Origin: a virus
Reading direction: 5' to 3' (one strand)
DNA: 64,000 nucleotides
IMG/VR virus record: IMGVR_UViG_3300025122_000010
Location: 1 to 64,000 of that record
The notes beneath the pieces are model-generated. The model was not told the DNA's origin. It saw only the letters and a list, made by a program, of their open reading frames with translations, and searched no databases. Positions 14,573-42,300 of this stretch are shown piece after piece. The translations under genes were made by a program, and so were the position numbers. Positions within the stretch are counted from its first letter, which is position 1. Every line of letters begins with the position of its first letter.

Positions 14573-15365
14573 CCCGAATGATATTCACATTGTACTCATA
14601 GGGAACGATCGAGTATTAGACTATAGATTGAATATGGAGATACTGAGATTCAATTTTAGTTTCAGTGATCGTTTGTGGATTACAACTGTATACAATGGAG
14701 ATCCAAATGGACTACCGTCAGGTATTGGAGAAAATACGTTTATTCATGTACCAGAGAATCGGGGTTACGGGTATGGTGCTCTTGATGGTTTCAATCATGG
14801 GCTTAGTTTTGCTGCGGATGGGTACAGGCCGATAGTAATGATCTTTAACTTCGACGTATGGTTTTTTACAGAGAAGGGATTCATAGCATGTATTGAAGAT
14901 TTCTTGGAAGCGAATGAATTCAAAGGTGCTGGTGATAATATACCGAAGAATTTTTCAGCAGGATTTCTTCCAGATCATCAACTGTTTATGACAGACTGCA
15001 TGATATTTGATAGAGATTTGCTTAAGAAAATATTGCCATTGAAAGATGAACCTGCTGAACATAGAATGAATAACCCAAAATTGCAAGCAATGTATGAAGG
15101 AACTGAACTAGGTTTTATGAATATGGAAGAATGGTTTTACGGATCAGTTGATAGTAAATTACAAGAAACTAAAACTAAATTGAAACCGCCTCCAGGATTT
15201 ATTGCTCATATTATGCAAAGAGATGGGGCTCCAAGATATAGATGGACAGAGAAGTTTACGCTAGCACATTCTCACGATTATGAGCAGAAGAAAGAATGGT
15301 TAAAACAATATAATACTACTAAAGGACAGTTAATTCCAAAATTTTTAAATGGTGAATTTGGTTGA
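14565..15365 (+). CDS. GT-A-like glycosyltransferase (divergent)
   Basis: ENRGYGYGA..FNHG and FNFDVW (DxD-like). Confidence 0.5.
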   Translation: MFDPNDIHIVLIGNDRVLDYRLNMEILRFNFSFSDRLWITTVYNGDPNGLPSGIGENTFIHVPENRGYGYGALDGFNHGLSFAADGYRPIVMIFNFDVWFFTEKGFIACIEDFLEANEFKGAGDNIPKNFSAGFLPDHQLFMTDCMIFDRDLLKKILPLKDEPAEHRMNNPKLQAMYEGTELGFMNMEEWFYGSVDSKLQETKTKLKPPPGFIAHIMQRDGAPRYRWTEKFTLAHSHDYEQKKEWLKQYNTTKGQLIPKFLNGEFG

Positions 15366-17655: not shown

Positions 17656-17696
17656 TAGACACGGACACTACAACAAATCTGTGTCTATTTTTGTTT
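17656..17696 (+). terminator. intrinsic terminator-like hairpin after the RNA array
   Basis: TAGACACGGA/TCTGTGTCTA followed by TTTTTGTTT. Confidence 0.55.
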
Positions 17697-17739
17697 GTCA
17701 AAAACTTCAACGCAGTATATACTCGAGGAGGTAAACGTT

Positions 17740-19353
17740 ATGGGAAAGTTCACAGGTACAGCAACTCCTAAGATTAATCATCGTAAGGCACATCCACGTG
17801 CTAGTGAGATCAAGGAAACAAGAAACTTTGAAAGTGGAAAGGCTTTCACTCTTCCTGCTAAGGAACGTCTAGCTACAAGAGTGATGACTTCAATGATTAA
17901 TGAGAAGTCATTCTATGGTGACACTACATCTGAGCTCTTGAATGATCTTAGAGAAGTTGCAAAGACAGATCCTCTATTCATTCTTAAGTTGGCTGCATAC
18001 ACTCGTAATATCATGTTCTTGCGTTCTGCTCCAACTTTTGTTCTAGCTCATGGCTCAATGATTCCTGAAGTGAAGCCTTATATTCGTCAGTGGACTCCTA
18101 AGATTCTAAAGAGAGCTGATGAACCAGCAGAGACACTTGCTGCAATCAATAGCATCTTTACTGAAAAGGGTGAGAAGCCAGTTATCCCTAACTCTATCAA
18201 GAAGGGTATCTCTGATGCATTGAGAAACTTTGACGCTTACCAGTTGATGAAGTATAAGGGTGAGGGACAGTCAGTTAATCTTTGGGATGTGTTCAATGTA
18301 TGTCACCCAAAGCCAACTAATGGTGAGCAAGCTTCAATGTGGAAGTCTTTCATGAATAGTGAACTCAATCCTGCTAAGACTTGGGAAACTGAGTTGTCTA
18401 AGACAGGACAGACTGGTAAGTCCAAGGCTAAGGCTTGGGAAGACATCATTCCTTCTATGGGTTATATGGCTATTATACGTAACCTTAGAAACTTCATTCA
18501 GGAAGGGTTGTCAGATGAATTGATTTCTGAAATTTGCAAGAAGTTGACAGACCCTAAGGCTGTTGCAAAGAACAAGCAGCTTCCATTCCGTTACTTCTCT
18601 GCTTATCGTGAGCTTGAAAAGCTTACAGGCAAAAGTATGTTTGCTCGTGACTACTGGGGAAATAGAGAAAATAGAGATGAAAAGGTGTTCACAGCTCCTG
18701 AGGAGAAGACTAAGATAAAGAAGCTAATGAGAGCTGTTGATAAGGCAATGGCACTTTCTGTTCAGAACGTCGATCAGTTGCCTGGTGTAACAGCGATCTT
18801 CTCTGATCACTCAGCTTCAATGGATAGCTCAATTTCAAGTAAGTCAAGCATTACGCATATGAACGTAGCAATGGTTCTTCATGCATTGACTGACTCTCTG
18901 AATCCTGAGAATGTTGGTGCAATCTTTGGTGAGTCAATTGCTGCTGTTGATTCTGAAGGTTTGACTCCAATGAAGTTTATTGAAGCAATGGTTAATACAG
19001 ATGTTGGTCACTCAACTAATGCTTGGTTGTGCTTTGATCATTTGACTAAGTCAAAGGTAAAAGTTGACAGAATCATCTTACTTTCAGACATGCAGTGTTA
19101 CAATTCTAGTGGATATGGACTTCGTTCTGGTTCACGAAGTGTATCTGACAAGTGGGATACATATCGCACCAAGGTTAACCCAGATGCTTGGTTCCATTCA
19201 ATTGATCTAGCTGGATATGGAACATCAGTTGAGCCGATCAATTCAAAGAATGTCTCACTCTTTGCCGGCTGGAACACAAGGTTCTTGGATGTTATCAAGG
19301 GAGTTGAGAAGGGTGTTGGTGGATTGGTTGAAGAGATTGAGAATTACAGTTAG
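17740..19353 (+). CDS. Ro60/Rsr-like TROVE-domain RNA-binding protein with C-terminal vWA domain
   Basis: RADEP, FDAYQLMKY, TWETELS, MAIIRNLRN, QLPFRYFSAY, DHSASM (MIDAS), LSDMQ; SD GAGGAGG before ATG at 17740. Confidence 0.92.
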   Translation: MGKFTGTATPKINHRKAHPRASEIKETRNFESGKAFTLPAKERLATRVMTSMINEKSFYGDTTSELLNDLREVAKTDPLFILKLAAYTRNIMFLRSAPTFVLAHGSMIPEVKPYIRQWTPKILKRADEPAETLAAINSIFTEKGEKPVIPNSIKKGISDALRNFDAYQLMKYKGEGQSVNLWDVFNVCHPKPTNGEQASMWKSFMNSELNPAKTWETELSKTGQTGKSKAKAWEDIIPSMGYMAIIRNLRNFIQEGLSDELISEICKKLTDPKAVAKNKQLPFRYFSAYRELEKLTGKSMFARDYWGNRENRDEKVFTAPEEKTKIKKLMRAVDKAMALSVQNVDQLPGVTAIFSDHSASMDSSISSKSSITHMNVAMVLHALTDSLNPENVGAIFGESIAAVDSEGLTPMKFIEAMVNTDVGHSTNAWLCFDHLTKSKVKVDRIILLSDMQCYNSSGYGLRSGSRSVSDKWDTYRTKVNPDAWFHSIDLAGYGTSVEPINSKNVSLFAGWNTRFLDVIKGVEKGVGGLVEEIENYS

Positions 19354-28099: not shown

Positions 28100-28993
28100 A
28101 TGAATTTGAATTTGGATAAGATCAAAGCTGCTTTAGATAAGTACGATAATCCACAAAGTGCAACAGGAGGTGGAAAAAACCAGTTTGGTGACAACCTTCT
28201 AAGGCTTAATCCTGCTAATGATGAGATTAGTACAGTCGTAAAGATTGTATCGAATAAGTTCAATCTTGAAGATCCATTCACTGAACTATATTTCCATTAT
28301 GGTTTGCCTGGGCTTCAGTCTGCACTTTGCCCAAGAAAGATGCATAATGAACCATGTCCTGCTTGTGAATTTGGTTGGACAGTATTAGAGAAGTATAAGG
28401 AAACTAGGATCGAGAAGGATAGGAAGCCACTTGATATTCTTATGCCTAATGTAAGAATATTTGTACCTGTCGTTGTAATGGAGGAGGAACAGAAGAAGAC
28501 TAGGCTTTGGGGCTTTAGTCCAACAGTTCACAGGAAGCTTTTGAGTTGTATCGTTGAATTTGCTGAAGAAGGAATTGATATAACTGATCCTGAGAAGAGT
28601 CCTGAATTTAGAATCTCTGTAATTTCTAAAGCTAAGTCTAAGAAGTCGTTTAACACTATCGATATTGATCCTGTTAAGAAGGGCTTGTCTTACTCGATTA
28701 CGAAGTTGGCTAATAAAGATGATGTTGCAGCAATCTTGGATTCATGCCCGAATGTTACAGATATTTACGAACCAAAGACACATGAAGAGATTTCAGAAGC
28801 TGTTGACAAGTATGCACAAGGCTCAGCTCCCAATACGACTACTTCGAGTACTGAAGAAGCTAGTACAGGGACTGAGAAGGATTATTCAAACGACAAAGAA
28901 GCCTCAGGTGAAGAAAGTGATTCGAGTGATAATTTGGAGAATTTGGCAGACAAATTCAGTAAAGCTATGAATGAAAGAGAAAGTGACGAATAA
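28100..28993 (+). CDS. single-stranded DNA-binding protein (gp32-like)
   Basis: FHY..CP..CPAC Zn site, DITDP, acidic tail, adjacent to recombinase. Confidence 0.75.
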   Translation: MNLNLDKIKAALDKYDNPQSATGGGKNQFGDNLLRLNPANDEISTVVKIVSNKFNLEDPFTELYFHYGLPGLQSALCPRKMHNEPCPACEFGWTVLEKYKETRIEKDRKPLDILMPNVRIFVPVVVMEEEQKKTRLWGFSPTVHRKLLSCIVEFAEEGIDITDPEKSPEFRISVISKAKSKKSFNTIDIDPVKKGLSYSITKLANKDDVAAILDSCPNVTDIYEPKTHEEISEAVDKYAQGSAPNTTTSSTEEASTGTEKDYSNDKEASGEESDSSDNLENLADKFSKAMNERESDE

Positions 28994-31419: not shown

Positions 31420-31426
31420 AAAAATG

Positions 31427-31550
31427 TGGGAAGGAGTGGTCACGAGAATGGACCACCTGACCTGAGAAAAAAATGGGATAAGCTCCAGATAATATCAGGT
31501 TATGATCATCAGGGTAGCTCCTGAAGTCAGTGGAATTCTGACCCTTCCCA
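31427..31550 (+). ncRNA. tRNA-like RNA (8-bp acceptor, 6-bp D-like stem, 29-nt loop in place of anticodon, long V arm)
   Basis: TGGGAAGG/CCTTCCCA, GTGGTC/GACCAC, TGACCTGA/TCAGGTTA, TCAGG/CCTGA, GTCAG/CTGAC. Confidence 0.55.
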
Positions 31551-31574
31551 GGATTAAAAAAAAGGCAGAGATAT

Positions 31575-32267
31575 ATGACCAGAGAAGAAGTTGAAGCACG
31601 GACAATCTATCTGGTGAGAGCAGGTTCTCACGCTTACGGTCTGAATACAGAGACTTCTGATGTGGACACTCGAGGCATCTGTATTCCAACAGAGGAAGCC
31701 ATTTATGGTCTTGGTAAATTCGAGCAGTATGAAGATAAGGTCAATGACACAGTCATCTATGATATTCGCAAGTTCTTCAGTCTAGCAATGAAGTGCAACC
31801 CAAATATCATTGAACTCTTGTTTGTCAATGACGAACACGTTCTAGAAATGAGTGGTATCGGAAAGGATCTGAGACAACACAGACGACTATTCGTCTCTCA
31901 GCTAGCAAGGAAGACATTTGGTGGATATGCAATCAGTCAAATGAAGAAGTTTCATAGATCAGCTCTCCAACCTGGAGCTCCGGAGCTAAACTACAAGAAT
32001 GCAATGCACCTCATCAGACTCTTGAGGACAGGAATCAGCATTCTTCAAACAGGAGAGCCAATTGTCAACAGAGAGCATGATCGAAAAGAGCTTCTAGCAA
32101 TTCGTAGAGGAGAGCATTCTAACGGTTCGATTATGGATATTGCAGATGAACTGTTTGAAAAGCTTGACCTCATGCCCTCAACCCTACAAAGTGAGCCGAA
32201 CTACGAGATGCTGAATCATCTACTCATCAGTTACATCAAAGGCTATCTGAAAGGGAATGACGGATGA
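31575..32267 (+). CDS. Pol-beta-superfamily nucleotidyltransferase (RlaP/Nuc-transf-like)
   Basis: GSHAYGLNTETSDVDTRG, KCNPNIIELL, KNAMHLIRLL. Confidence 0.85.
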   Translation: MTREEVEARTIYLVRAGSHAYGLNTETSDVDTRGICIPTEEAIYGLGKFEQYEDKVNDTVIYDIRKFFSLAMKCNPNIIELLFVNDEHVLEMSGIGKDLRQHRRLFVSQLARKTFGGYAISQMKKFHRSALQPGAPELNYKNAMHLIRLLRTGISILQTGEPIVNREHDRKELLAIRRGEHSNGSIMDIADELFEKLDLMPSTLQSEPNYEMLNHLLISYIKGYLKGNDG

Positions 32268-32773: not shown

Positions 32774-32853
32774 GGCCCCGTAGCTCCAAGGTATGGGAGA
32801 GCGTCTGGCTTGCACCCAGAAGGTTGAGAGTTCAATTCTCTCCGGGTCCACCA
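32774..32853 (+). tRNA. tRNA-Ala(TGC) with C3:U70
   Basis: Cloverleaf, loop CTTGCAC, CCA. Confidence 0.85.
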
Positions 32854-32944: not shown

Positions 32945-33074
32945 AGATCAACAAATCGTCTAATGGAAAGACACTTTGCTTGAGGAGGGCTGGTTCGACT
33001 CCAGCTGACGCGTAGTAGCTCACGAGGGAGAGCGCTGAGAAGAAATGCAGGTTCGAATCCTGTTTTGTTGATCT
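32945..33074 (+). ncRNA. double-elbow tRNA mimic (permuted T-arm/D-arm module nested in place of the anticodon loop)
   Basis: 11-bp terminal stem; arms in order D,T,D,T; two TTCGA loops; no anticodon, no CCA. Confidence 0.7.
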
Positions 33075-33118: not shown

Positions 33119-33140
33119 AGCTTATAAGGAAAAAGGAATT

Positions 33141-33227
33141 GGTCGCACCTCTGATCGTCTAATTAGGGAAGACACCGCATATAAATGCGGAGATAAGGGT
33201 TCGATCCCCTCATGAGGTTACGCGATC
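33141..33227 (+). ncRNA. tRNA-like RNA with shortened anticodon loop and extended acceptor stem
   Basis: D arm GTCT/AGAC, CCGCAT-ATAA-ATGCGG, T loop TTCGATC, no CCA. Confidence 0.6.
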
Positions 33228-33517
33228 ACTAGGTAGAATGATAGGGCTTGCCGGCTTTAAATAACTTCTACCGATTGGGTATGGGGTTAGAGTTACGGCA
33301 ATAACTCTAACTCCTGCTCAACTTACTAGAGATTAGATATGCCAAAAATCAAAGACACATTCAAGATTGACGAAGTGATAGAGAAACTAATTCCATCATT
33401 GTTTAGACGAAGGGAGTTGTATGCGAAGCTAGCTGAATTAAACTTAAAGAACGATGAATTCAATAAACTGTTCACAAAGTTACACAATAATTTACTACCA
33501 CACAGGAGGAATTAACA

Positions 33518-35151: not shown

Positions 35152-35406
35152 ATGGCAGATTCATTGGAAATACAATTAAGAGAAGCTTCATTACTTTTTT
35201 CACAAAATTCAGATTGTTGTGCACCAAGTGATCTAGGTAGTGATATCAAGATAAGCATGATTGATGGAGGTGGAGGACCTTATTTTGTAATTGAAACAGA
35301 ACGTTGGGCAATGGATAAGCCGGAAGATTTAATCAAGCTATTAGAATATGCTAAGACATGTTTAGATTGGTTTAACAAAGACGACGTGGGGGATGGGACT
35401 GCATGA
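35152..35406 (+). CDS. conserved hypothetical phage protein
   Basis: DGGGGPYFVIETERWA. Confidence 0.65.
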   Translation: MADSLEIQLREASLLFSQNSDCCAPSDLGSDIKISMIDGGGGPYFVIETERWAMDKPEDLIKLLEYAKTCLDWFNKDDVGDGTA

Positions 35407-35421
35407 GGTGGTCACTTAGTT
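35388..35421 (+). pseudogene. possible 5' half of a disrupted tRNA
   Basis: GGGGGAT start, D stem GACT/GGTC, then no T arm or 3' acceptor strand. Confidence 0.4.
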
Positions 35422-35437
35422 AAAGTGTAAGGGGTGT

Positions 35438-35479
35438 TTACTTATCTTCAATGATATTTATTCTAGAGGAGATAAGTAA
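35438..35479 (+). promoter_or_regulatory. RBS-sequestering hairpin with promoter-like motif in its loop
   Basis: TTACTTATCTTC pairs with GGAGATAAGTAA (SD and A of ATG); loop contains ATATTTAT. Confidence 0.65.
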
Positions 35480-36069
35480 TGAACTGTAAACATTGTGACA
35501 AAGAGTTAGTAGGAAAAAGAAAAGGCGCAAAGTATTGTGATATATACTGCTTAAACAGACATTCAAACGAGAATAGAATATTCACTGATTCACATAGAAA
35601 AAAGATAAGCGAAAAGCACAAAGGAAAGAGATTATCCGAAGATCATAAAAGAAAAATAAGTGAGAGTCTTAAAGGAGTTAACGTAGGTAAGAAACATTCT
35701 GCTGAATCAAAACATAACATGTCAGTAGCACGAAAAAAGTTATTAAAGAACAGACCAGATTTACATCCTAATAATCTTTGCAGAGGAAAAAAGAGTTATC
35801 CGCAAGAATTGTTATTTGATGAACTTACTAAAATCTTCAAAAAAGTAGATAATGAAGTCTATTATAAAAGCTATTGGATTGATCTATTAGTTAATGATAT
35901 TTTAGCAGTTGAGGTAGATGGAGAGTTTTGGCATAAAGGAAGAGAAAATTCTGATAGAGAAAAAGATAGTGTAATTAGAACCAAATATAGTTTAGTAAGA
36001 ATACCTGCAAAAGATGTTTTAAATGATGTCAACAAAGTAGTAAAGAGAATATGTGGGCTGGTAGTTTAA
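35479..36069 (+). mobile_element. free-standing homing endonuclease (Zn finger + NUMOD3 repeats + Vsr/DUF559-like nuclease)
   Basis: HRKKISE, HKRKISESLKG, KHSAESK repeats; WIDL..AVEVDGEFWH. Confidence 0.85.
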
Positions 36070-36129
36070 TTGGGAAAATACTAGACTTGCACTCTTGTGT
36101 CAAGGGTTCGAATCCCTTCCGGTCCACCA
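36055..36129 (+). tRNA. tRNA-Ala(TGC) with G3:U70; overlaps the endonuclease 3' end
   Basis: Loop CTTGCAC, A73, CCA. Confidence 0.85.
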
Positions 36130-36137
36130 AAAAACAT

Positions 36138-36209
36138 GGGCGAGTAACTCAAGCAATATTTTAGGCAGAGTACCGGTAGTTACGGGTTCGAATCCCGCCT
36201 CGTCCACCA
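36138..36209 (+). ncRNA. tRNA-like RNA lacking the anticodon arm, with G3:U70, A73 and CCA
   Basis: GGGCGAG/CTCGTCC, ACTC/GAGT with 17-nt loop, 10-nt linker, TTCGAAT T arm. Confidence 0.75.
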
Positions 36210-36216
36210 ACTAAGT

Positions 36217-36290
36217 TGGCTCATACACTAACGGCAAGTGGACAGGCTTTGACCCTGTCGATCCTGGTTCGAATCCAGGTGGGCCAGCCA
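36217..36290 (+). tRNA. tRNA-Gln(TTG)
   Basis: Loop CTTTGAC, GCCA. Confidence 0.9.
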
Positions 36291-36307
36291 AAAATTAAGG
36301 GGTTGCA

Positions 36308-36526
36308 ATGAAGATAACGAAAATCAAGAGTGAAGTTTCTGATACTGATGGGTTGTTCGTTACCATGACTAGACAAGAAGCTATGAGAGCAATCTCTTCT
36401 CTTGCTCATCAACTTGCAGAAAGAGACTCTAATTCAGGGAGAACGGAATGGATGAATGTTACGATGGTCGATGGTGATATTAAAGAACATAGCAAATACT
36501 TTTCAATTGCAGTTGAAGAGAAGTAG
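36308..36526 (+). CDS. hypothetical protein
   Basis: SD AAGGGG; lies between tRNAs. Confidence 0.6.
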   Translation: MKITKIKSEVSDTDGLFVTMTRQEAMRAISSLAHQLAERDSNSGRTEWMNVTMVDGDIKEHSKYFSIAVEEK

Positions 36527-36527
36527 T

Positions 36528-36604
36528 GGGCGATTAACTCAGCTGGTTAGAGTACTTGCTCGACAAGCAAGAAGTCACTGGTTCGAATCCAGTATCGCCC
36601 ACCA
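36528..36604 (+). tRNA. tRNA-Val(GAC) with C33
   Basis: CTTGC-TCGACAA-GCAAG, CCA. Confidence 0.88.
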
Positions 36605-41895: not shown

Positions 41896-42300
41896 ATGCC
41901 AAGAATTCGTGGTTATACAATCTATAACAAGCAATTGACAGACATCACTGATGATGAGTACGATCAATTGCAGAAACTAGCTTTGAGAGGTGGTGCATTT
42001 AAAACTCATCTCAGGTTAAGTCAAAGAGACAAGGAGGAATACAAAGGGGAGAAGATATTTCTAATGAAGCACAACAGAAGTAAGAAGCTAGTAGGCTGGT
42101 CTTTGTGTTTCAAGCCCCAAGGCATCTATCTTTTTGTAGCAACAAAATTCAGACGAAAAGGATATGGGAAAGAGTTATATAGCAGAGCATTTAGTTACTT
42201 TAACAGGAGACATAAGAAACCAACTATATTCAGACATGATATGAGAAGTAATAGATTCTATGATAAAGTTTCTGATGACTCCAAAATAAGGATAGCCTAA
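41896..42300 (+). CDS. GNAT-family acetyltransferase
   Basis: LFVATKFRRKGYGKEL acetyl-CoA motif; NRFYDK. Confidence 0.7.
   Translation: MPRIRGYTIYNKQLTDITDDEYDQLQKLALRGGAFKTHLRLSQRDKEEYKGEKIFLMKHNRSKKLVGWSLCFKPQGIYLFVATKFRRKGYGKELYSRAFSYFNRRHKKPTIFRHDMRSNRFYDKVSDDSKIRIA

What the first reader, a model, noticed from the sequence alone, without database searches (positions are those of the whole stretch)
36138..36209. tRNA-like RNA with alanine identity and CCA but no anticodon arm
Seen: acceptor stem GGGCGAG/CTCGTCC with G3:U70, A73 and encoded CCA; a TTCGAAT T arm; a D stem with a 17-nt loop; only 10 nt (ACCGGTAGTT) between D and T arms. That linker overlaps the palindrome TACCGGTA, which could allow dimerisation into a double-elbow shape like 32945-33074. 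Known: AlaRS needs mainly G3:U70, and the tmRNA tRNA-like domain is alanylated without an anticodon. Inference: a chargeable, anticodon-nuclease-proof RNA that could act as a decoy for EF-Tu, SmpB or tRNA sensors, or as a non-ribosomal Ala donor.
Basis: partly seen in the sequence, partly recalled or inferred. Interest (0 to 1): 0.7.

Follow-up and report, generated by a model that had tools for sequence, protein, structure and literature searches.

The report
Phage tRNA gene missing its anticodon arm
A large marine phage carries, inside its long row of tRNA genes, a 72-base tRNA-shaped gene that keeps the alanine-charging end but has lost the part that reads codons; it is most likely a recently crippled tRNA gene next to a mobile nuclease gene, though a working alanine-carrying decoy RNA cannot be excluded.

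Summary
Window 36138-36209 is a tRNA-derived gene between tRNA-Ala(UGC) and tRNA-Gln(UUG). It has a perfect 7-bp acceptor stem with G3:U70, A73 and encoded CCA, a T arm, and a D stem with a 17-nt loop. The anticodon stem-loop is absent. ARAGORN misses it. Rfam tRNA scores 30.7 bits against a cut-off of 29.

It is not a tag-less mini-tmRNA. The tmRNA model aligns only the acceptor stem and T arm, at 21 bits. Phage DS6A scores 34.7 bits with its D-loop and helix 2 aligned.

No homologue of the whole element turned up in 50,697 phage records, IMG/VR or GTDB genomes. The only diverged relative, a Tara contig, keeps the first 16 nt unchanged and lacks the remaining 56 nt. The element lies 57 nt from the edge of a homing-endonuclease cassette, inside a 1.09-kb tract identical in a second, otherwise mosaic strain. 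The palindrome is what a stem remnant would leave, and 24% of shuffles contain one as long.

Best reading (0.5): a recently disabled tRNA gene, perhaps a second Ala isoacceptor, that may still be processed and charged. Rival (0.3): a functional anticodon-less alanine acceptor.

Earlier scan notes report mini-tmRNAs in other phages. This architecture was noted only in this genome.

The parts
36138..36144 (+). Acceptor stem, 5' strand GGGCGAG (G3 at 36140)
   Evidence: It pairs 7 of 7 with 36199-36205. It is identical in L086 and in the 16-nt stub of L085.
36145..36146 (+). U8 A9 connector
   Evidence: aligned to model positions 8-9.
36147..36171 (+). D arm: stem ACTC/GAGT with a 17-nt loop AAGCAATATTTTAGGCA. 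A14, A15, G18, G19 and A21 are kept. About 9 extra AT-rich nt lie between positions 15 and 18.
   Evidence: (15 nt in place of 5 model positions). tRNA-Val(GAC) 36528-36604 has the same D stem.
36172..36181 (+). 10-nt linker ACCGGTAGTT = A26, C27 C28 | G42 G43, then variable region UAGUU. The anticodon stem-loop (13 model positions, nt 29-41) is absent. The palindrome TACCGGTA spans 36171-36178.
   Evidence: alignment (13 model positions deleted, 0 nt in their place); a palindrome this long occurs in 24% of shuffles, and removing nt 29-41 from the 34 tRNAs leaves a junction palindrome of 4 nt or more in 25 of 34.
36182..36198 (+). T arm: ACGGG / TTCGAAT / CCCGC (G53:C61, U54 U55 C56 G57 A58; A49.C65 mismatch)
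   Evidence: (mismatch marked).
36199..36209 (+). Acceptor 3' strand CTCGTCC (U70 at 36203), discriminator A73 (36206), encoded CCA (36207-36209)
36055..36129 (+). Upstream neighbour tRNA-Ala(UGC), with G3:U70. Its 5' half belongs to the homing-endonuclease cassette and its 3' half is homologous to the relative's tRNA-Ala.
   Evidence: homology with L085 resumes at 36081.
36217..36290 (+). Downstream neighbour tRNA-Gln(UUG); 72 of 74 nt identical in the relative L085
35479..36069 (+). Free-standing homing endonuclease gene (NUMOD3 + REase_MTES_1575/DUF559). The right edge of its cassette is about 36081, 57 nt from the element.
   Evidence: Pfam; mosaic boundaries.
36528..36604 (+). tRNA-Val(GAC), the closest paralogue of the element inside the window
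   Evidence: 38 of 46 anchored positions identical. The maximum among the 561 pairs of the 34 tRNAs is 37 and the mean is 23.

Best explanation
The element is a tRNA gene of the phage's array that has lost the distal anticodon stem and loop (nt 29-41) and carries an enlarged D loop. By its G3:U70 and its place beside tRNA-Ala(UGC) it was probably a second alanine isoacceptor.

It lies in the zone of a free-standing homing endonuclease that has already rebuilt the neighbouring tRNA-Ala. The deletion is either collateral damage of that mobile element or an allele that removes its target. It now travels with the nuclease cassette by co-conversion.

Shown:
- the anatomy
- its tRNA ancestry
- its absence, apart from a 16-nt stub, in the one diverged relative
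- the identical tract shared with a mosaic strain

Inferred:
- it is still co-transcribed with its neighbours
- RNase P cuts it and its 3' end is trimmed to CCA
- it can be charged by AlaRS, because G3:U70 minihelices are substrates
- this charging is a by-product and not a selected function
For: 1. tRNA ancestry. It matches Rfam tRNA above the gathering score, with a clean 13-position gap in the anticodon arm. 38 of 46 anchored positions are identical to tRNA-Val(GAC) 320 nt downstream, more than any of the 561 pairs among the 34 tRNAs.

2. No conservation of the architecture.
- 0 IMG/VR hits to a gapped pattern of the element or to its first 16 nt.
- 0 of 17 matching records among 50,697 phage genomes cover 80% or more of it.
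- The 16 GTDB hits to its 3' 21-mer, in the 9 loci examined, are ordinary tRNA-Arg, Ala and Leu genes or non-tRNA sequence.

3. The only diverged relative, L085 (neighbouring 72-aa ORF 78% identical in protein), has tRNA-Ala, then GGGCGAGTAACTCAAG, then 11 AT-rich nt, then tRNA-Gln. The 3' 56 nt of the element (MAFFT places a 52-column gap) are absent. The gene is therefore dispensable in that lineage.

4. Mobile-element context.
- The endonuclease cassette replaces L085 positions 992-1049. Homology resumes at window 36081.
- L086 is identical to the window from 35287 to 36374. Eight mismatches cluster at 35256-35286, and there is no alignable sequence further left inside the neighbouring ORF. 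This is the pattern expected of homing with co-conversion.

5. The palindromic linker is what abutting the two strands of a stem remnant gives.

6. One stem pair is already broken (A49.C65).

7. No separate promoter-like or terminator-like site lies on the + strand between 36055 and 36290.
Against: 1. The 5' 16 nt are 16 of 16 identical between window and L085. Third codon positions of the adjacent ORF are only 42 of 73 identical, and the 8-nt spacer just upstream is 5 of 8. The gene was therefore constrained in both lineages until recently, so the relic reading needs two recent, independent deletions.

2. All 7 acceptor pairs, all 4 D-stem pairs and every tertiary-contact base are intact: U8, A14, A15:U48, G18, G19, A21, G46, G53:C61, U54, U55, C56, A58. 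This is unexpected for an old pseudogene.

3. Relative to its closest paralogue the differences at 7:66, 28:42, 51:63 and 15:48 are compensatory.

4. An AT-rich stretch follows CTCAAG in both lineages. The enlarged D loop may therefore be ancestral, which would make the ancestor already non-canonical.

5. The same phage has other tRNA mimics and a Ro60 gene. Phage RNAs with an alanine acceptor and no decoding arm exist elsewhere.

6. Only one diverged relative could be examined.
Confidence: 0.5

Rival explanations
1. It is a selected, functional anticodon-less alanine acceptor. It is processed like a tRNA, charged by host AlaRS through G3:U70 and A73, and bound by EF-Tu. Because it cannot decode and cannot be cut in an anticodon loop, it acts as a decoy or sink for AlaRS, EF-Tu or a tRNA-sensing defence, or as a non-ribosomal alanine donor.
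For: - Intact stems and tertiary bases.
- The 5' part is conserved far above the neutral level (16 of 16 against 42 of 73 at third codon positions).
- Compensatory differences from the closest paralogue.
- A tight tRNA-like spacing and an encoded CCA.
- A precedent that a phage tRNA-like-domain-only RNA inhibits host tmRNA (passages seen in PMC4131195, and PMC11915505).
- That alanine minihelices are charged without an anticodon is recalled knowledge. Only a search listing that mentions minihelix alanylation was seen.
Against: - No second example of this architecture in any collection searched.
- The nearest relative has deleted it.
- No partner protein was identified: no SmpB in the 84-kb record, which CheckV rates 31% complete.
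- The A49.C65 mismatch lies in the T stem, which is recalled to be the part EF-Tu reads.
- The constraint seen could date from the time when the gene still had an anticodon arm.
Confidence: 0.3
2. It belongs to the phage's Ro60 / Y-RNA / RlaP RNA-surveillance set. It would be a tRNA-shaped ligand or substrate for those proteins, working alongside the other tRNA mimics at 31420-31555, 32949-33071 and 33140-33235.
For: - TROVE/Ro60 at 17695-19353 and RlaP at 31575-32267.
- Three other non-decoding tRNA-like RNAs within 5 kb.
- Bacterial YrlA RNAs mimic tRNA, and one is cut by RNase P and receives CCA (passages seen in PMC4201824).
Against: - YrlA RNAs have the permuted order T arm, acceptor hairpin, D arm, and a Ro60-binding stem made by the two ends. 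This element has the normal tRNA order, free acceptor ends and no such stem.
- It lies 17 kb from the Ro60 gene.
- No Rfam family other than tRNA and tmRNA matched it.
- It is absent in the relative.
Confidence: 0.08
3. It is a diverged member of the tag-less mini-tmRNA family (tRNA-like domain only), typified by mycobacteriophage DS6A, and titrates SmpB to block host trans-translation.
For: - The Rfam tmRNA model gives 21 bits, E = 7.6e-06 in 2.7 kb and 4.8e-05 in 17 kb.
- It has a G3:U70 acceptor, a T arm and no anticodon arm.
- Another viral contig with the same 3' 21-mer (L002) scores 30.8 bits on the tmRNA model.
- Earlier scan notes call such genes common in phages (unchecked AI notes).
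Against: - In the tmRNA alignment only the acceptor stem and T arm are matched. The D-loop motif and helix 2 are deleted.
- DS6A aligns both of those parts and scores 34.7 bits.
- The element keeps a true D stem, which the tmRNA tRNA-like domain lacks, and it scores higher on the tRNA model (30.7 bits, above that family's cut-off).
- ARAGORN reports no tmRNA.
- No SmpB gene in the record.
Confidence: 0.07
4. It is a chance resemblance or inert spacer that is never made as an RNA.
For: The fold z-score is only -1.21. The Rfam score is 1.7 bits above the cut-off.
Against: - It has a perfect 7-bp acceptor stem, a canonical T loop, D-loop GG and CCA.
- It occupies exactly one tRNA slot between two tRNAs, with 8-nt and 7-nt spacers.
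- 38 of 46 anchored positions match a neighbouring tRNA.
Confidence: 0.02

Closest known systems
tRNA pseudogenes and tRNA gene fragments created around homing endonucleases in phage tRNA clusters (for example the T4-type SegB region; PMC13096335 seen only as a search listing and start of abstract)
   Same: The element is tRNA-derived, has lost a part essential for decoding, lies tens of nt from an endonuclease cassette that has remodelled the neighbouring tRNA, and is not conserved in the relative.
   Different: The stems and tertiary bases are still perfect and the alanine identity set is complete. It could therefore still be processed and charged. Its 5' part is conserved above the neutral level.
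Tag-less ('TLD only', CDS-less) tmRNA of mycobacteriophage DS6A (NC_023744, 28478-28560), and similar forms in plastids and mitochondria (PMC4131195 and PMC11915505, passages seen; Mao et al. 2009 not seen, cited through them)
   Same: A phage-encoded RNA of about 70-80 nt with a G3:U70 acceptor stem and a T arm and no anticodon arm. It has a partial tmRNA-model match.
   Different: DS6A has an unpaired D-loop motif (GG..UCGAC) and a helix-2 stub where the anticodon arm would be. This element has a true D stem with a large loop and only a 10-nt single strand there. It scores 21 bits against 34.7 on the tmRNA model. It sits inside a tRNA array and not alone.
tRNA-Ala acceptor-T-arm minihelix, the AlaRS substrate defined by G3:U70 (recalled: Hou and Schimmel 1988, Francklyn and Schimmel 1989, not read here; a listing on minihelix alanylation, PMC11392972, seen)
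   Same: G1:C72, G2:C71, G3:U70, A73 and CCA on a 12-bp acceptor/T coaxial stack.
   Different: This is a natural gene that also keeps the D arm and the elbow contacts. Charging has not been tested.
YrlA-type bacterial and phage Y RNAs (PMC4201824, passages seen)
   Same: A tRNA mimic with D and T arms in a genome that encodes Ro60. One YrlA is cut by RNase P and receives CCA.
   Different: YrlA has a circularly permuted order and a Ro60-binding stem formed by its two ends. This element has the normal order and free acceptor ends.
Viral contig elements L002 2521-2593(-) and L004 6483-6582(+), found with the element's 3' 21-mer
   Same: The same acceptor stem (GGGCGAG/CTCGTCC, G3:U70) and T-loop region, and no canonical anticodon arm. 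ARAGORN misses both.
   Different: L002 has the tmRNA tRNA-like-domain layout (tmRNA model 30.8 bits). L004 has a normal D arm and a 37-nt non-decoding arm. Both are solitary genes in contigs where ARAGORN finds no tRNA. The shared 3' half was the search key, so it is not independent evidence of homology. The flanking proteins are not clearly orthologous.

Membership tests
Canonical tRNA (Rfam RF00005) | 7-bp acceptor stem with discriminator base and CCA end | tested here: met
   7 of 7 pairs, A73, encoded CCA.
Canonical tRNA (Rfam RF00005) | D arm and T arm with the elbow bases (G18 G19, U54 U55 C56) | tested here: met
   The D loop is 17 nt and the T stem has one A.C mismatch.
Canonical tRNA (Rfam RF00005) | Anticodon stem of 5 bp with a 7-nt loop | tested here: not met
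   13 model positions deleted and only C27 C28 / G42 G43 left. ARAGORN does not call it.
Canonical tRNA (Rfam RF00005) | Score at or above the family gathering score | tested here: met
   30.7 bits against 29. This is the lowest of the 31 matches.
Alanine-accepting RNA (AlaRS substrate) | G3:U70 wobble pair with A73 and G1:C72, G2:C71 | tested here: met
   G at 36140 pairs with T at 36203, and A is at 36206.
Alanine-accepting RNA (AlaRS substrate) | Actually aminoacylated with alanine | not testable with these tools
   Needs in vitro charging or acid-gel analysis.
Tag-less mini-tmRNA (TLD only, DS6A type) | Unpaired D-loop motif (GG...UCGAC) aligned to the tmRNA 5' region | tested here: not met
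   these model positions are deleted in the element; they are aligned in DS6A.
Tag-less mini-tmRNA (TLD only, DS6A type) | Helix-2 stub in the place of the anticodon arm | tested here: not met
   only a 10-nt single strand is present. DS6A has CGCCG/CGGCG.
Tag-less mini-tmRNA (TLD only, DS6A type) | G3:U70 acceptor stem plus T arm, closer to tmRNA than to tRNA | tested here: inconclusive
   The acceptor stem and T arm match (21 bits). The tRNA model scores higher and passes its cut-off.
Tag-less mini-tmRNA (TLD only, DS6A type) | Binds SmpB or inhibits trans-translation | not testable with these tools
   No SmpB gene in the 84-kb record. The host is unknown.
YrlA / Y RNA | Ro60-binding stem formed by the 5' and 3' ends, and the permuted order T arm, acceptor hairpin, D arm | tested here: not met
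   Features taken from PMC4201824. The element has the normal order and free acceptor ends.
tRNA pseudogene / relic | Derived from a tRNA gene and lacking a part needed for decoding | tested here: met
tRNA pseudogene / relic | Not maintained in relatives | tested here: inconclusive
   In one of one diverged relatives most of it is deleted. The retained 16 nt are unchanged. No further relatives could be fetched.
tRNA pseudogene / relic | Decay of stems and conserved bases | tested here: not met
   Only A49.C65 is broken. All other pairs and tertiary bases are intact.

The most novel reading that the evidence does not exclude
The element is a working member of a class not yet described: a phage RNA that keeps the D arm but has no anticodon arm. 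Host enzymes would process it, alanylate it and load it on EF-Tu. It differs in architecture from tag-less mini-tmRNAs. The phage would use it to soak up or mislead host factors that read the upper half of tRNA (AlaRS, EF-Tu, tRNA-sensing or tRNA-cutting defences), or to feed alanine to a non-ribosomal acceptor, possibly together with the phage's Ro60, RlaP and other tRNA mimics. The palindromic linker could let two copies pair into a two-headed form (cofold gain -11.9 kcal/mol).
Probability: 0.3. Interest if true: 0.75.

Novelty: new member of a known kind. Interest (0 to 1): 0.4.

Why it matters
If it is a relic, it gives a clear view of how homing endonucleases reshape phage tRNA arrays. 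In this one locus a tRNA-Ala has been rebuilt from a cassette-borne 5' half, the next tRNA gene has lost its anticodon arm, and the same gene is cut down to a stub in a relative. It also warns annotators that some Rfam tRNA hits in phage arrays cannot decode.

If it is functional, it would be a second architecture of alanine-accepting, non-decoding phage RNA beside the mini-tmRNAs. It would allow a direct test of whether phages use chargeable tRNA top halves against host translation factors or tRNA-directed defences.

Tried and rejected
- Close relatives by protein. The neighbouring 72-aa ORF has one homologue besides itself. The search for related loci found none in IMG/VR and two metagenome contigs. 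RlaP alone gave none.
- An RlaP alignment gave 80 viral loci, but few carry tRNA arrays. ARAGORN found 90 genes in 87 sequences, 34 of them in the window, so these loci say little about this element.
- My own acceptor/T-arm scanner over 1.5 Mb gave 408 hits against 98-120 in shuffles. That is too noisy for a census. It was used only to pick out a few oddities and, in a stricter form, to locate the DS6A gene.
- DNA patterns. The gapped element pattern, the first 16 nt and a 36-nt stretch of the tRNA-Gln gave 0 IMG/VR hits each.
- The 3' 21-mer gave 3 viral and 16 GTDB loci. The bacterial ones examined (9 of 16) were tRNA-Arg(CCG) in 3, tRNA-Ala in 3, tRNA-Leu in 1 and 2 non-tRNA places. This gives no clue to the host.
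- Sequencing runs. 24 runs were listed. The four laid (X5, X6, X7, X10) gave only short, low-depth, near-identical contigs, with no listed variant, indel or joint at the element. One 324-nt contig of X6 covers 35981-36210 and then runs on unlike the window, but its letters were not shown. No conclusion about expression or population variants is drawn.
- Synteny of L002 and L004. Both have a ResIII helicase downstream, but the helicases are only 25% identical and the intervening ORFs are unrelated. The idea of one conserved locus was dropped.
- The reading as a D-armless tRNA, with the ACTC/GAGT helix as the anticodon stem, was rejected. The loop is 17 nt, or 10 nt if two more pairs form, with no 7-nt anticodon loop.
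- Literature searches found no description of a phage tRNA-like RNA that retains the D arm and lacks the anticodon arm. Supplementary files were not opened.
- SmpB was searched in the phage record and not found. The record is rated 31% complete.
Full report
**What is there**

The window is the first 64 kb of an 84,102-nt IMG/VR virus record that CheckV rates 31% complete. ARAGORN finds 34 tRNA genes between 31.3 and 46.9 kb, all on the + strand, and none in the remaining 20 kb of the record.

The finding at 36138-36209 sits 8 nt after tRNA-Ala(UGC) and 7 nt before tRNA-Gln(UUG). The sequence reads as follows:
- GGGCGAG, then UA
- D stem ACUC/GAGU around a 17-nt loop that ends GGCA
- 10 nt, ACCGGUAGUU
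- T stem ACGGG/CCCGC around UUCGAAU
- CUCGUCC, then A, then CCA

The acceptor stem pairs 7 of 7 and includes G3:U70. The MFE fold returns these three helices. It is not exceptional against shuffles (z = -1.21; 24 of 200 shuffles fold as well).

The Rfam tRNA model matches at 30.7 bits, just above the gathering score of 29. Its alignment shows 13 anticodon-arm positions deleted, with only C27 C28 / G42 G43 left, and 15 nt where the model has 5 in the D loop. ARAGORN does not call it. The one addition is that the T stem has an A49.C65 mismatch.

**More than chance**

The element occupies exactly one tRNA slot. It ends in an encoded CCA, as do 32 of the 34 ARAGORN-delimited tRNA sequences. It keeps every base used for the tRNA elbow and core: U8, A14, A15 with U48, G18, G19, A21, G46, G53:C61, U54, U55, C56, A58.

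At 46 positions that can be anchored without an alignment (nt 1-13 and the last 33 nt), it is identical at 38 to tRNA-Val(GAC) at 36528-36604. The 561 pairs among the 34 tRNAs average 23 and never exceed 37. The two share the uncommon D stem ACUC/GAGU. They differ by paired changes at 7:66, 28:42, 51:63 and 15:48. The element is tRNA-derived and spent a long time under selection for the tRNA fold.

G3:U70 differs from the Val paralogue's G3:C70 by one transition. The alanine identity could therefore be old, if the gene began as a second Ala isoacceptor beside tRNA-Ala(UGC). The array has GNN and UNN pairs for Val, Gly and Leu. Alternatively the identity could be incidental.

**The palindrome**

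TACCGGTA is present. Its core is what is left when the two strands of a stem (27:43, 28:42, with A26 and U44) are joined without a loop. Removing nt 29-41 in memory from each of the 34 tRNAs leaves a junction-centred palindrome of 4 nt or more in 25 of 34. In addition, 4818 of 20000 shuffles of the element contain a palindrome of 8 nt or more.

RNAcofold does favour a dimer by -11.9 kcal/mol. This calculation ignores tertiary D/T contacts and costs the D stem. Dimerisation is possible but the sequence gives no sign that it is selected.

**Relatives**

There is no near match to the surrounding 2.5 kb in 50,697 phage records other than pieces of single tRNAs. A sensitive blastn search with the element gave 17 records, none covering 80% of it. 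Exact patterns found nothing in IMG/VR: the element with gaps, its first 16 nt, and 36 nt of the tRNA-Gln.

The 72-aa ORF just downstream has one homologue (78% identity). A metagenome scan with that pair returned two contigs.

L086 (1258 nt) contains the endonuclease gene, tRNA-Ala, the element and tRNA-Gln. It is identical to the window from 35287 to its end. Eight mismatches are packed into 35256-35286, and nothing is alignable further left inside the neighbouring ORF.

L085 (a 1467-nt Tara contig) lacks the endonuclease. It has tRNA-Phe, the ORF, a different tRNA-Ala, an 8-nt spacer, and then GGGCGAGTAACTCAAG. Next come 11 AT-rich nt and the tRNA-Gln. The last 56 nt of the element (MAFFT places a 52-column gap) are missing there.

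Between window and L085 the identities are:
- tRNA-Gln: 72 of 74
- the 72-aa ORF: 175 of 219, but only 42 of 73 at third codon positions
- the spacer before the stub: 5 of 8
- the stub: 16 of 16

At 58% neutral identity, 16 of 16 has a probability of about 2e-4. Even at 82.6% it is 0.05. The gene was therefore constrained in both lineages until recently, and the relative then lost it.

**The mobile-element setting**

ORF 35479-36069 carries NUMOD3 and REase_MTES_1575/DUF559 domains, so it is a free-standing homing endonuclease. Against L085, homology stops at window 35356 and resumes at 36081, inside tRNA-Ala. The cassette has therefore replaced the end of the upstream ORF and the 5' half of the resident tRNA-Ala with its own version.

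The element begins 57 nt beyond that boundary. It lies inside the tract that is identical in L086, whose left flank is very different. That pattern is expected from homing with co-conversion of flanking markers.

A deletion in a redundant tRNA gene here could spread with the cassette whatever its effect. Deletions in this gene could also be favoured if the endonuclease's target lies in it. That would explain why both known alleles, the anticodon-less form and the stub, are deletion alleles of one gene. This last step is inference and the cleavage site is unknown.

**Comparison with mini-tmRNAs**

The tmRNA model matches the element at 21 bits. The literature records a 'TLD only' tmRNA in mycobacteriophage DS6A and says that a similar molecule inhibits tmRNA in E. 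coli (passages in PMC4131195, and PMC11915505; Mao et al. 2009 itself was not seen). I located the DS6A gene at 28478-28560 of NC_023744, where the record annotates only CDSs.

The tmRNA model gives DS6A 34.7 bits and aligns its D-loop motif and a helix-2 stub. [quoted passage not shown]

The architectures are opposite. The tmRNA tRNA-like domain has no D stem and has a helix in the anticodon direction. The element has a D stem and no such helix. It is therefore not filed in that family, although it could act in a similar way on factors that read only the acceptor/T half.

Two other viral contigs share the element's 3' 21-mer and also lack a canonical anticodon arm. L002 has the tmRNA tRNA-like-domain layout (tmRNA model 30.8 bits). 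L004 has a normal D arm plus a 37-nt non-decoding arm. They show that alanine-type, non-decoding tRNA-like genes recur in phages. The shared 3' half was the search key, however, and their loci are not demonstrably orthologous.

Earlier agents of this scan reported tag-less mini-tmRNAs in at least eight other phage genomes. These are unchecked notes, used only as a lead to the DS6A comparison.

**Other candidate partners**

The phage encodes Ro60 (TROVE) and RlaP. It has three other tRNA mimics within 5 kb of the element. YrlA-type Y RNAs have a permuted arm order and a Ro60-binding terminal stem (passages in PMC4201824), which the element lacks. No SmpB gene is present in the record. A small GNAT gene lies in the array with no evident link to the element.

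**Verdict**

Three lines of evidence point to a tRNA gene disabled not long ago:
- a clean loss of nt 29-41
- the position next to an active-looking homing endonuclease
- deletion of the gene in the one diverged relative, with no second example of the architecture anywhere

Such an RNA would probably still be co-transcribed, since no separate promoter-like or terminator-like site lies on the + strand between 36055 and 36290. It would also probably be processed and be chargeable with alanine. These last steps rest on established tRNA biology and not on data here.

Against this stand the intact stems and tertiary bases and the strong conservation of the 5' part. These leave a real chance, about 0.3, that the anticodon-less form is itself the selected product.

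Comparative data from more relatives, or a simple charging and Northern experiment, would settle it.

Noticed in passing
window 32949-33071: A 123-nt RNA with an 11-bp terminal stem, two T arms and two D-like arms and no anticodon. Rfam tRNA scores 42.9 bits and ARAGORN does not call it. Its inner order of T arm then D arm resembles the permuted YrlA layout described in PMC4201824.
   Followed up: partly
window 33140-33235: A tRNA-like RNA with a long terminal stem, a D arm, a 6-bp arm with a 4-nt loop in the anticodon position, and a T arm. Rfam tRNA scores 23.1 bits at 33148-33218. Fold z = -2.24. It may be a Y-RNA-like partner of the phage Ro60.
   Followed up: partly
window 31420-31555: A 136-nt multi-helix RNA directly upstream of the RlaP gene. 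Fold z = -4.26, and 0 of 200 shuffles fold as well.
   Followed up: partly
window 32774-32853: This tRNA-Ala(UGC) has C3 opposite U70 instead of G3:U70 (read). The same 80-nt type in the relative L085 (1020-1099) has G3:U70. It may not be charged with alanine.
   Followed up: no
window 35357-36080: The homing-endonuclease cassette (NUMOD3 + REase_MTES_1575) replaces the 5' half of the resident tRNA-Ala. The last 15 nt of its ORF overlap the rebuilt tRNA. L086 shares an identical tract from 35287 onward, with 8 mismatches clustered at 35256-35286.
   Followed up: partly
window 17695-19353 and 31575-32267: A Ro60/TROVE protein and an RlaP-family nucleotidyltransferase are encoded by the phage. 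RlaP homologues occur in hundreds of large viral contigs.
   Followed up: partly
window 41896-42300: A small GNAT acetyltransferase gene inside the tRNA array.
   Followed up: no
L002 2521-2593 (-) and L004 6483-6582 (+): Solitary alanine-type tRNA-like genes in two other viral contigs. ARAGORN misses both. L002 looks like a tag-less mini-tmRNA (tmRNA model 30.8 bits). L004 has a normal D arm and a 37-nt non-decoding arm.
   Followed up: partly
L089 357-449 (MN117721.1 about 14969-15061): Escherichia phage vB_EcoP_Bp7 has an unannotated tRNA-like sequence with a D loop of about 26 nt. ARAGORN does not call it.
   Followed up: no
L013 1969-2027 and 11554-11659: A 59-nt miniature tRNA-like RNA (fold z = -3.12) and a tRNA-like sequence with a large D-loop insertion, both in a 167-kb viral contig that also has RlaP.
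   Followed up: no
L087 28478-28560 (NC_023744): The published TLD-only tmRNA of phage DS6A is not annotated in the RefSeq record, whose listed features are all CDSs. Rfam tmRNA scores it below the gathering score (34.7 against 47).
   Followed up: yes
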